In this document: positions 2,134 through 2,877 of the stretch, in pieces
Layout of the letters: each line of letters starts with the position of its first letter
Position numbering within the stretch: position 1 is the first letter of the stretch
From: a virus
Lineage: Duplodnaviria; Heunggongvirae; Uroviricota; Caudoviricetes
Direction: 5' to 3' (one strand)
Virus record (IMG/VR): IMGVR_UViG_2558860170_000002
Length of the DNA stretch: 37,042 nucleotides
The notes under the pieces: model-generated
The model's input: only the letters and a program-made list of their open reading frames with translations
The model's database searches: none
What the model was told of the DNA's origin: nothing
Translations under genes and position numbers: made by a program

Positions 2134-2877
2134 ATGAACAGAAAACAATTCATCCAGTCGCATGGTGCTACTTGTAGTAACTGGACTTGGAGTTGGTCAT
2201 TTGTGAACCACGACAAGAAAATGGTTATCTTTGGTGCATGGGATGTACAAAAAGAGCAAGAAAGATCAGTCATTCTGAGGGAGCGGTGGAAAACCAAAGT
2301 TGTGGAGGGAAAGGAAAGAAAAAATCTTGGATATATTCAAGCTATTGAACACATTCAATTGATAGCTGAAGGTTATGAGCTTTACACGTTTGATATGGAG
2401 CAGGGACGAAACGATGAGAATAGAGATGTAGCTGTTATCAAACGGTTCACTCCAAAACTTGAAAAACGTTACCTTCGGAAAGAAGGAACAGTTTGGTATG
2501 CAGACTTTTTACCTAATCCATTTCCAGATGAAATTACCTCACCTGAAAACTACGCTGAGGGTGCAAAAAAGCAAGTTACAGTAAACTCCTACGAGCGTGA
2601 TCCAAAAGCACGACAGGCTTGTATTGACCATCATGGTACTTCCTGCGGGTGTTGTGAGTTTAACTTTGAGAAAGTCTATGGTGAACACGCCAAGGGCTTT
2701 ATACACGTTCATCATATCAAACCGCTACACACAGTAGGCGAGGATTACGAGGTAAATCCAATTACTGATATGGTTCCACTTTGTCCAAACTGTCACGCAA
2801 TGGTACATCGCGGTAACGAAGTATTAAGTGTCGAAAGTTTAAAAGCACTGTTGTTTAAAGACAGCAATAAAATTTGA
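2134..2877 (+). CDS. HNH endonuclease with McrA-like C-terminal nuclease domain and an uncharacterised ~150-aa N-terminal domain
   Basis: The C-terminus CGCCEF...HVHHIKP...NPITDMVPLCPNCH is a classical C-x2-C...HH...N...C-x2-C-H HNH motif and closely resembles the E. coli McrA C-terminus as I recall it. The N-terminal domain has no motif I recognise. The gene is GTAC-poor, unlike the backbone. Confidence 0.6.
   Translation: MNRKQFIQSHGATCSNWTWSWSFVNHDKKMVIFGAWDVQKEQERSVILRERWKTKVVEGKERKNLGYIQAIEHIQLIAEGYELYTFDMEQGRNDENRDVAVIKRFTPKLEKRYLRKEGTVWYADFLPNPFPDEITSPENYAEGAKKQVTVNSYERDPKARQACIDHHGTSCGCCEFNFEKVYGEHAKGFIHVHHIKPLHTVGEDYEVNPITDMVPLCPNCHAMVHRGNEVLSVESLKALLFKDSNKI

What the first reader, a model, noticed from the sequence alone, without database searches (positions are those of the whole stretch)
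2134..2877. McrA-like HNH nuclease with a novel N-terminal domain
The C-terminal about 70 aa is a textbook McrA-type HNH motif. The N-terminal about 150 aa has no motif I can name. In established Type IV (modification-dependent) enzymes such as McrA, an N-terminal domain reads the modified base and the HNH domain cuts. A prophage-borne enzyme of this kind would exclude phages with modified DNA.
Basis: partly seen in the sequence, partly recalled or inferred. Interest (0 to 1): 0.6.

Follow-up and report, generated by a model that had tools for sequence, protein, structure and literature searches.

The report
Prophage HNH nuclease with unclassified sensor-like domain
A defective prophage (exact protein named Shigella sonnei/E. 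coli in NCBI) carries an intact, selectively conserved gene that joins a McrA-type DNA-cutting domain to a widespread front domain found in no domain library searched here, most likely a new reader module for a restriction enzyme that attacks chemically modified foreign DNA, though no experiment shows this yet.

Summary
The ORF at 2134-2877 (+) encodes 247 aa. Its C-terminus (aa ~141-229) is an intact McrA-type HNH/zinc-finger nuclease. Its N-terminal ~125 aa match nothing in Pfam, NCBIfam, PHROGs, PADLOC or PDB sequences.

The N-domain is a real, conserved, modular family. It occurs alone, and it is fused to HNH, PD-(D/E)XK (NOV_C) and MUG113 domains. It also sits in tandem with the known modified-base readers EVE, SAD_SRA and DUF3427.

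The fold evidence is mixed:
- Foldseek is not significant.
- Profile-profile comparison to SRA is negative.

The gene has no conserved partner and no recurrent DNA methyltransferase neighbour in 49 loci. It rides on prophages, conjugative plasmids and defence islands, and dN/dS is 0.07-0.15.

Best reading (confidence ~0.55): a single-protein Type IV-like modification-dependent nuclease with a new sensor-domain family. The target modification is unknown. Because the host is Shigella/E. coli, it is presumably not Dam or Dcm marks.

Verdict: a new variant of a known kind, of moderate interest.

The parts
2122..2129 (+). Shine-Dalgarno-like GAGAGGGA, 5 nt upstream of the ATG
   Evidence: Read directly from the sequence. 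No convincing sigma-70 promoter or terminator was found in the flanks.
2134..2877 (+). Complete ORF of 247 aa (stop codon included): N-domain, linker and HNH nuclease
   Evidence: The exact protein is on 484 contigs, named 'HNH endonuclease [Shigella sonnei]/[Escherichia coli]'. dN/dS is 0.07-0.15 against Enterobacter orthologues.
2134..2508 (+). N-terminal domain, aa 1-125: beta-rich with one long helix (aa 65-78). Signature: R3-K4-x-F6, G11-A-T-C14-x-N16-W17-x-W19-S20-W21-S22-F23-x-N25, F33-G34-x-W36, W52, Y67, H73, Y81-x-L83, F86, W121. Putative DNA or modified-base sensor.
2509..2553 (+). Inter-domain linker, aa 126-140 (P-x-P-D-E-I...); low model confidence continues to about aa 154
   Evidence: pLDDT is below 50 at aa 132-134 and 140-154. 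Linker length varies by only a few residues across 41 homologues.
2554..2820 (+). McrA-type HNH nuclease region, aa 141-229. It includes the conserved pre-HNH helix (E142-G-A, N151, Y153-E-R155, A159-R160, C163) and the beta-beta-alpha-Me/zinc-finger core.
2644..2811 (+). Pfam HNH core, aa 171-226: C171-x2-C174 ... H191-V-H193-H194 ... C217-P-N219-C220-H221 ... H225
   Evidence: PF01844 at 27.6 bits. These residues are invariant in 41 homologues.

Best explanation
The gene encodes a stand-alone, NTP-independent, Type IV-like restriction nuclease carried as accessory cargo by a (now defective) prophage.

Proposed mechanism, with each step marked:
1. The ~125-aa N-terminal domain binds DNA and recognises a non-host base modification. 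It probably does so through its invariant Trp/Ser/Asn loop (aa 14-25) and its aromatic residues, in the manner of SRA/EVE base-flipping readers (inferred).
2. Binding positions, or releases from autoinhibition, the C-terminal McrA-type HNH domain, which cuts nearby DNA with a divalent metal. The domain's identity and intact active site are shown. The coupling to binding is inferred by analogy to VcaM4I, PMC7897488.
3. Incoming phage or plasmid DNA that carries the modification is destroyed, which protects the lysogen (inferred).

The host (exact protein named Shigella sonnei/E. coli in NCBI) is, from general knowledge, Dam+ and Dcm+. The target is therefore presumably not G6mATC or C5mCWGG. 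Candidates are 5hmC or glucosyl-5hmC, 5mC in another context, or another hypermodified base.

The N-domain is a separate sequence family, at most distantly related in fold to SRA/PUA readers.
For: HNH identity and intact active site.

The N-domain is an autonomous, modular unit:
- The representatives search gave 236 proteins at E <= 1e-3. They are stand-alone (~120-135 aa), fused to HNH (~245 aa), or part of longer proteins.
- Pfam on 33 long members found HNH in 19, NOV_C (PD-(D/E)XK) in 4, EVE in 4, HNH_2 in 3, and SAD_SRA, DUF3427 and MUG113 in 1 each.
- Specific architectures: N-dom+DUF3427+NOV_C (P0187), N-dom+SAD_SRA+HNH_2 (P0257), EVE+N-dom+HNH (P0138), N-dom+MUG113 (P0217).
- P0187 mirrors YenY4I, a PUA-like+DUF3427+PD-(D/E)XK enzyme that prefers 5mC/5hmC DNA (PMC6765204).

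Context:
- There is no conserved neighbour and no DNA methyltransferase family in two or more of the 150 nearest ORFs of 49 loci.
- GajA/OLD-type ATPases (5), integrases (5), WYL/WCX, EcoRII-C and RhuM are present.
- One Pseudomonas locus lies beside a Gabija-like pair and GmrSD_N.
- The family is on 128 plasmids, 95 of them conjugative, and in ~30 viral contigs.

Selection: both domains are under purifying selection.
Against: - There is no experimental or direct computational evidence of modified-base binding.
- Most of the strongly conserved residues are aromatic or hydrophobic and could simply form the core.
- In Rhodobacterales the domain, alone or fused to HNH, sits in an apparent operon with a classic AAA ATPase and DUF6638. 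That context is not obviously defensive.
- None of the 50,697 sequenced phage genomes carries the N-domain.
Confidence: 0.55

Rival explanations
1. A defence or toxin nuclease that does not depend on modification. In this reading the N-domain senses something else, such as a DNA structure or DNA ends, a phage protein, a nucleotide signal or ssDNA, or it simply tethers the HNH domain to DNA without specificity. The protein would then act as an abortive-infection or plasmid-competition nuclease.
For: - The same mobile-element and defence-island context fits this reading.
- The domain is fused once to VWA (P0242), a module of NTP-dependent conflict systems.
- It is linked to an AAA ATPase and DUF6638 in Rhodobacterales.
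- The SRA similarity is weak.
Against: The domain's repeated partners are known modified-base readers (EVE, SAD_SRA, DUF3427) together with nucleases. It takes the same position as those readers in otherwise identical architectures. A constitutively active non-specific HNH would be toxic, yet the gene is stably kept without an immunity partner.
Confidence: 0.2
2. A selfish homing endonuclease whose N-domain is a sequence-specific DNA-binding module.
For: HNH nucleases are common homing enzymes in phages. A homing-type HNH_3+NUMOD4 ORF lies 1 kb upstream, at 533-1087.
Against: - The HNH is the McrA/zinc-finger subtype, not HNH_3.
- The gene is free-standing in accessory regions, not inside an intron, an intein or a conserved gene.
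- Relatives at 40-50% identity span many phyla as single chromosomal, plasmid or prophage genes.
- It is absent from sequenced phage genomes.
Confidence: 0.07
3. A phage DNA-packaging helper HNH (HK97 gp74-like) that assists the terminase in cos cleavage, or another phage DNA-metabolism nuclease.
For: The gene lies upstream of the terminase genes in the prophage. This is the general region where packaging HNH genes are found (my own knowledge of HK97-like phages).
Against: - The gene is ~8 kb from the terminase, and variable cargo lies between them.
- The terminase is lambda GpA type and has its own nuclease domain (PF20454).
- Packaging HNH proteins are small, single-domain proteins.
- The family also occurs on IncFII plasmids and in chromosomal defence islands with no terminase.
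Confidence: 0.04
4. A cellular DNA-repair or housekeeping nuclease, or a component of an AAA/DUF6638 machine, that prophages and plasmids have captured incidentally.
For: A conserved AAA - N-domain(-HNH) - DUF6638 arrangement with overlapping start and stop codons occurs in Rhodobacterales and in metagenomic relatives. DUF6638 was seen twice among the neighbours.
Against: This arrangement appears in only 2 of 49 surveyed loci. Elsewhere the neighbours vary and are typical of mobile elements. The distribution is patchy, as for accessory genes.
Confidence: 0.06

Closest known systems
SRA-HNH Type IV enzymes (TagI, 6ghs; ScoA3IV/Sco5333 group; SRA domain of ScoMcrA, 5zmm/5zmn)
   Different: There is no Pfam SAD_SRA hit. 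hhalign against an SRA profile gives probability 0.2%. Structurally aligned identity is 6-7%. One relative (P0257) carries both this domain and a canonical SRA domain, so the two are distinct modules.
EcoKMcrA (6ghc), the e14-prophage Type IV enzyme of E. coli
EVE-HNH enzymes (VcaM4I 6yex, TspA15I, CmeDI)
   Same: For these enzymes, base flipping into an aromatic pocket and autoinhibition by the linker are documented (PMC7897488), and that is the mechanistic template used here.
YenY4I / McaZI group (PUA-like + DUF3427 + PD-(D/E)XK)
   Same: P0187 has this N-domain, then DUF3427, then NOV_C. This is the YenY4I layout with the N-domain in the position of the PUA-like reader (PMC6765204).
   Different: The window protein itself has an HNH effector and no DUF3427 domain.

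Membership tests
McrA-type HNH nuclease (Pfam PF01844, beta-beta-alpha-Me with CX2C...CX2C zinc finger) | Pfam HNH score above the gathering threshold | tested here: met
   27.6 bits against a 21.4 cut-off, at aa 171-226.
McrA-type HNH nuclease (Pfam PF01844, beta-beta-alpha-Me with CX2C...CX2C zinc finger) | Catalytic His/Asn/His residues and four zinc-binding cysteines present and conserved | tested here: met
   C171, C174, H193, H194, C217, N219, C220, H221 and H225 are invariant in 41 homologues. They align with the VHH and CPNCH motifs of EcoKMcrA.
EcoKMcrA orthologue | NEco N-terminal 5mC-binding domain | tested here: not met
SRA-HNH (TagI / ScoA3IV) | [quoted passage not shown] | tested here: not met
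   No Pfam hit in the query or in 48 diverse members at E <= 1. hhalign of the family profile against a 119-sequence bacterial SRA profile gives probability 0.2%.
SRA-HNH (TagI / ScoA3IV) | SRA (PUA-superfamily pseudobarrel) fold | tested here: inconclusive
EVE-HNH (VcaM4I / TspA15I) | EVE domain (PF01878) | tested here: not met
   No Pfam EVE hit. hhalign against an EVE sequence gives probability 0.07%.
ScoA3V (Sco5330) group, PUA-like-HNH stimulated by 6mA | Homology of the N-domain to the ScoA3V N-domain | not tested
   The ScoA3V sequence was not obtainable with these tools. The paper reports close homologues only in Actinomycetales.
Type IV (modification-dependent) restriction enzyme, functional class | Nuclease without a cognate methyltransferase or obligatory partner | tested here: met
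   Among the 150 nearest ORFs of 49 loci, no DNA methyltransferase family recurs and no neighbour is conserved. The individual contexts agree.
Type IV (modification-dependent) restriction enzyme, functional class | A separate specificity domain that is modular across nuclease types and co-occurs with known modification readers | tested here: met
Type IV (modification-dependent) restriction enzyme, functional class | Cleavage or binding requires a modified base; restriction of phages with modified DNA | not testable with these tools
   This needs biochemistry and phage assays.
HNH homing endonuclease | NUMOD, IENR, AP2 or HTH DNA-binding modules, and a location in an intron, an intein or a conserved target gene | tested here: not met
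   No such Pfam hits. The gene is free-standing in variable cargo regions.
Phage packaging HNH (HK97 gp74-like) | Small single-domain HNH immediately next to the terminase genes | tested here: not met
   The protein has two domains and 247 aa. It lies ~8 kb from a GpA-type terminase. The family also occurs on plasmids and in defence islands without a terminase.

The most novel reading that the evidence does not exclude
The N-terminal domain founds a previously undescribed family of DNA-modification readers. It would be at most a very distant offshoot of the SRA/PUA fold, with its own W/S/N-rich recognition loop. Its specificity would differ from the known SRA, EVE, NEco and winged-helix sensors, for example for a hypermodified phage base, or for 5hmC or glucosyl-5hmC in a Dam+/Dcm+ host. 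This family would define a widespread single-gene Type IV system on enterobacterial prophages and conjugative plasmids. In other lineages the same reader would be reused with PD-(D/E)XK, MUG113 and AAA/DUF6638 partners.
Probability: 0.4. Interest if true: 0.65.

Novelty: new variant of a known kind. Interest (0 to 1): 0.5.

Why it matters
If the N-domain reads a modified base, three things follow.
- It adds a new reader module to the small set known for Type IV restriction (SRA, EVE/PUA-like, NEco, SBD, winged helix, DUF3427). Such readers are useful as epigenomic reagents.
- It gives a name and function to a protein now labelled only 'HNH endonuclease'. That protein is present in essentially the whole clonal Shigella sonnei lineage (952 collection blocks), on at least 128 plasmids (mostly conjugative Klebsiella plasmids) and in many phyla.
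- It would be a defence determinant relevant to phage therapy and to plasmid transfer among Enterobacteriaceae.

If it is not modification-dependent, the domain's many fusions still mark it as an unstudied sensor in conflict systems.

Tried and rejected
- Library scans of the full protein (Pfam, NCBIfam, PADLOC, PHROGs) hit only the C-terminal HNH.
- phmmer, and a 48-member family profile, against all PDB sequences found nothing for the N-domain.
- A Pfam scan of 48 diverse N-domains at E <= 1 gave only scattered single chance hits.
- hhalign of the family profile was negative against one SRA sequence, one EVE sequence and a 119-sequence SRA profile.
- Foldseek against the PDB was not significant. 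It raised a PD-(D/E)XK-like alternative (Hjc, EcoRV, HincII). I rejected an active nuclease of that kind because D37 and E50 are not conserved and the position of the catalytic Lys is an invariant Trp.
- The downstream 157-aa ORF (2960-3433) was considered as a partner or immunity gene. I rejected this because it accompanies the gene only in this prophage family.
- Megablast of the first 5 kb found no phage match and only a short, unrelated match in complete E. coli genomes.
- Rfam over the whole window and the promoter/terminator scan gave nothing informative.
- Literature searches found no paper describing this domain or family. END nucleases, the Domainator paper and the GmrSD paper were read and are unrelated.
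- A viral-contig scan with the diverse N-domain alignment failed for lack of a conserved word. It was redone with alignment A1.

Full report
**1. Observation**

The window has an ORF at exactly 2134-2877 (+). It starts with ATG, encodes 247 aa and ends in TGA. A GAGAGGGA ribosome-binding-like stretch ends 5 nt upstream of the start.

The C-terminal part is an HNH nuclease of the McrA type:
- Pfam HNH matches aa 171-226 above the gathering score.
- The PADLOC Type IV model mREase_IV matches aa 141-229 (E 4.7e-7).
- The closest solved sequences are the HNH parts of EcoKMcrA (6ghc, E 3.4e-5) and ScoMcrA (5zmm).
- Across 41 homologues at 47-91% identity, the two CX2C zinc pairs (C171/C174, C217/C220) and H193, H194, N219, H221 and H225 are invariant. 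The nuclease therefore looks catalytically competent.

The first ~130 aa match nothing in Pfam, NCBIfam, PADLOC or PHROGs.

**2. Where it sits**

The exact protein is recorded on 484 contigs and is named 'HNH endonuclease [Shigella sonnei]' or '[Escherichia coli]'. It is listed in 952 blocks of the assembly collection.

In those genomes the gene order is as follows:
- prkA/yeaG
- a 644-aa large serine recombinase
- small ORFs
- an HNH_3/NUMOD4 ORF (window 533-1087)
- a 153-aa ORF
- this gene
- a 157-aa ORF
- variable cargo
- a lambda-GpA-type terminase

Portal, capsid, tape-measure and tail-fibre genes follow.

The whole element has 34-45% GC, and the insertion sequences stand out at ~52%. The prophage is defective. 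The terminase large subunit is split by a 1331-nt IS (11001-12331), which has a 100% identical inverted copy at 27230-28560. An IS21 element lies at 5300-7269.

The same layout occurs in Enterobacter with an 80%-identical protein. About 30 full-length relatives lie in IMG/VR viral contigs of 20-40 kb, usually near one contig end. 'Prophage-borne accessory gene' is therefore confirmed.

**3. The family**

A search of 5.8 billion proteins returned 906 homologues. Most are 240-255 aa and cover the full length. A one-genome-per-species scan found full-length members in many groups:
- Enterobacterales and Pseudomonas
- Verrucomicrobiota, Planctomycetes and Bacteroidota
- Ignavibacteria, Armatimonadota and Gemmatimonadetes
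- Chloroflexi
- Alpha-, Beta- and Deltaproteobacteria

The family is on 128 PLSDB plasmids, 95 of them conjugative and mostly Klebsiella. One example is an IncFII plasmid where the gene sits between a NYN-domain gene and other cargo. None of 50,697 deposited phage genomes carries the N-domain.

Against the Enterobacter orthologues, dN/dS is 0.07-0.15, and both domains are constrained.

**4. The N-terminal domain is an autonomous module**

An exhaustive HMMER search with aa 1-135 found 236 cluster representatives at E <= 1e-3. By length and domain position they fall into three groups:
- the ~245-aa HNH fusion (the majority);
- ~120-135-aa stand-alone proteins, of which at least three are complete ORFs;
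- longer proteins.

Pfam on 33 long members gave HNH in 19, NOV_C (a PD-(D/E)XK nuclease) in 4, EVE in 4, HNH_2 in 3, HNH_5 in 2, and SAD_SRA, DUF3427, MUG113 and VWA in 1 each. Explicit architectures are:
- EVE + N-dom + HNH (P0138)
- EVE + N-dom (P0149, P0204)
- N-dom + SAD_SRA + HNH_2 (P0257)
- N-dom + DUF3427 + NOV_C (P0187)
- N-dom + NOV_C (P0145, P0194)
- N-dom + MUG113 (P0217)
- VWA + N-dom (P0242)

P0187 reproduces the layout of YenY4I, a PUA-like + DUF3427 + PD-(D/E)XK enzyme shown to prefer 5mC/5hmC DNA. In P0187 this domain occupies the place of the PUA-like reader (PMC6765204). A domain that is exchanged among unrelated nuclease domains and stacked with established modified-base readers behaves like a specificity or sensor module of modification-dependent nucleases.

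**5. What fold is it?**

The domain-only AlphaFold2 model is confident (pLDDT 86.7, pTM 0.80). It is beta-rich, with ten strands and one long helix at aa 65-78.

These are almost exclusively SRA or SRA-like sensor domains. The full-length model gave the same N-domain hits in addition to the HNH hits.

Three points weaken this assignment:
- Foldseek against the PDB found nothing significant (best E 0.14, TM <= 0.31). It mixed MspJI, AbaSI and KRYPTONITE with PD-(D/E)XK folds such as Hjc and EcoRV.
- Sequence methods see no relationship. The family profile against PDB sequences was empty. A Pfam scan of 48 diverse members was empty. hhalign against a 119-sequence bacterial SRA profile gave probability 0.2%, and against an EVE sequence 0.07%.

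An active PD-(D/E)XK reading is excluded. D37 and E50 are not conserved, and the would-be Lys position is an invariant Trp.

My conclusion is that this is a distinct sequence family. SRA/PUA-like is the best available fold assignment, but it is not established.

The family signature is R3-K4-x-F6, G11-A-T-C14-x-N16-W17-x-W19-S20-W21-S22-F23-x-N25, F33-G34-x-W36, W52, Y67, H73, Y81-x-L83, F86 and W121. Residues ~12-21 are a confidently modelled coil rich in Trp, Ser and Asn. This is a plausible recognition loop, but that is inference.

**6. Neighbourhoods**

I took the 150 ORFs nearest to the gene in 49 full-length loci from many phyla and scanned them.

Pfam found:
- Phage_integrase in 5
- OLD/GajA-type ATPases in 5, three of them with an OLD TOPRIM domain
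- WYL/WCX in 2
- HNH_2 in 2
- EcoRII-C in 1
- RhuM in 1
- MoxR/VWA/DUF58 in 2
- DUF6638 in 2

No DNA methyltransferase family occurred in two or more neighbours. Only Methyltransf_23 appeared twice, and from my own knowledge of that family it is not a DNA methyltransferase type. PADLOC confirmed genuine GajA (best E 1.5e-255).

Individual loci show the following:
- a Gabija-like pair plus GmrSD_N beside the Pseudomonas homologue;
- an Abi_2 fragment in Edwardsiella;
- another serine-recombinase/GpA prophage in Serratia.

The 157-aa ORF downstream in the window accompanies the gene only within this prophage family. The gene is therefore a solitary nuclease with no cognate methyltransferase and no fixed partner, and it is carried by mobile elements and defence islands. 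This matches what Lutz et al. reported for PUA-domain Type IV enzymes (PMC6765204).

**7. Mechanism proposed**

Shown:
- an intact McrA-type HNH domain;
- a separate, conserved, modular N-domain;
- a short linker of nearly constant length;
- solitary, mobile-element-borne genes.

Inferred:
- The N-domain binds DNA and discriminates a modified base.
- This recruits or de-represses the HNH domain, which cuts nearby. In VcaM4I the EVE domain flips 5mC/5hmC into an aromatic pocket and the linker helix autoinhibits the HNH domain (PMC7897488).
- The lysogen is thereby protected from phages or plasmids that carry that modification.

Because the host is E. coli/Shigella, which is normally Dam+ and Dcm+ (my own knowledge), the enzyme presumably ignores G6mATC and C5mCWGG, as EcoKMcrA does. 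The actual target is unknown.

Confidence is about 0.55.

**8. Rivals**

- (a) A defence or toxin nuclease whose N-domain senses something other than a base modification (0.2). This is supported by the weak SRA evidence, the VWA fusion and the AAA/DUF6638 linkage.
- (b) A homing endonuclease (0.07). No homing-type DNA-binding module is present, the HNH subtype is wrong, and the gene is free-standing and widely distributed as a single gene.
- (c) A packaging HNH (0.04). The gene is far from a GpA-type terminase that has its own nuclease, the protein has two domains, and the family is present on plasmids.
- (d) A housekeeping or repair nuclease (0.06). This fits only 2 of 49 loci.

**9. Comparison with known families and novelty**

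The protein works like the NTP-independent reader-HNH Type IV enzymes: TagI/ScoA3IV (SRA-HNH), VcaM4I/TspA15I (EVE-HNH) and EcoKMcrA (NEco-HNH).

It is not a member of any of these by its reader domain. Sequence tests for SAD_SRA, EVE and NEco membership were all negative, and the SRA-fold test is inconclusive. Homology to the ScoA3V N-domain could not be tested.

PADLOC v2 has no model covering the N-domain, and three literature searches found no description of it. I therefore rate it a new variant of a known kind: a known enzyme logic with an unclassified reader family.

A specialist would not be astonished, because new reader-nuclease fusions are expected. The family is nevertheless abundant in clinically relevant Enterobacteriaceae, easy to test, and could yield a new modification-specific reagent. 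Interest is 0.5.

**10. Limits**

- The neighbourhood survey used crude ORF calls and reports only the top 25 families.
- The identification of HE616528.1 as S. sonnei 53G rests on my memory.

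Noticed in passing
window 533-1087 (+): A 184-aa ORF with HNH_3 plus a weak NUMOD4 match (PHROG 59 'HNH endonuclease'). It is a homing-type endonuclease-like gene 1 kb upstream of the finding, and it is conserved at this position in the Enterobacter version of the prophage.
   Followed up: partly
window 11001-12331 and 27230-28560: Two 1331-nt IS copies (IS3-family ORFs of 136 and 301 aa), 100% identical and in inverted orientation. The first splits the GpA-type terminase large subunit (N-terminal fragment 10598-11041, remainder 12372-13832), so the prophage is defective. The inverted pair brackets ~15 kb of structural genes and could mediate an inversion.
   Followed up: partly
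window 5300-7269 (-): An IS21-family element (IstA 390 aa, IstB 266 aa; GC ~52% against ~37% around it), inserted in the cargo region 2.4 kb downstream of the HNH gene. It is absent at this site in some genomes (L004, L006).
   Followed up: partly
window 30881-32085 (-): Another GC-rich (~53%) block with ORFs of 279 and 112 aa. It looks like a further IS element inside the tail region and was not characterised.
   Followed up: no
window 19158-19532: Four tandem 75-nt (25-aa) repeats at 68-78% identity, inside the 883-aa tail-fibre-like ORF (18423-21074).
   Followed up: no
window 2960-3433 (+) and 3690-4358 (-): Two family-less ORFs of 157 aa and 222 aa with hydrophobic N-termini lie directly downstream of the HNH gene. 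The 157-aa ORF travels with the HNH gene only in this prophage family. The only match in complete E. coli genomes overlaps the 222-aa ORF (window 3599-4247, 82% identity, one genome).
   Followed up: partly
L098 2-3665; L072 6519-10762; L074 3580-7578: In Rhodobacterales and metagenomic relatives, the N-domain (alone, 122-133 aa, or fused to HNH) lies between a classic AAA ATPase (~398 aa) and a DUF6638 protein (460 aa). Start and stop codons overlap, and two small ORFs follow. This may be a multi-gene system that uses the same domain, and its function is unknown.
   Followed up: partly
L007 11866-14250 (Enterobacter prophage relative): The Enterobacter version of the prophage carries extra cargo between the HNH gene and the terminase: EAL, mSLOG/DUF4326, DUF488 and DuOB-domain genes. 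This looks like a second defence or conflict cassette in the same hotspot.
   Followed up: no
L101 (NZ_CP071084.1 1-10707) and 127 other plasmids: A 63%-identical family member sits near repA on IncFII conjugative Klebsiella plasmids, next to a NYN-domain gene, an Rpn-family nuclease and umuDC-like genes. Of the 128 plasmids carrying the domain, 95 are conjugative.
   Followed up: partly
L077-L096 (cyanobacteria, Sorangium and others): Close relatives of the HNH half alone (50-58% identity over aa ~130-240) occur with different N-terminal regions in Microcoleus, Pseudanabaena, Nostoc and others. This suggests further reader swaps on the same HNH scaffold.
   Followed up: no
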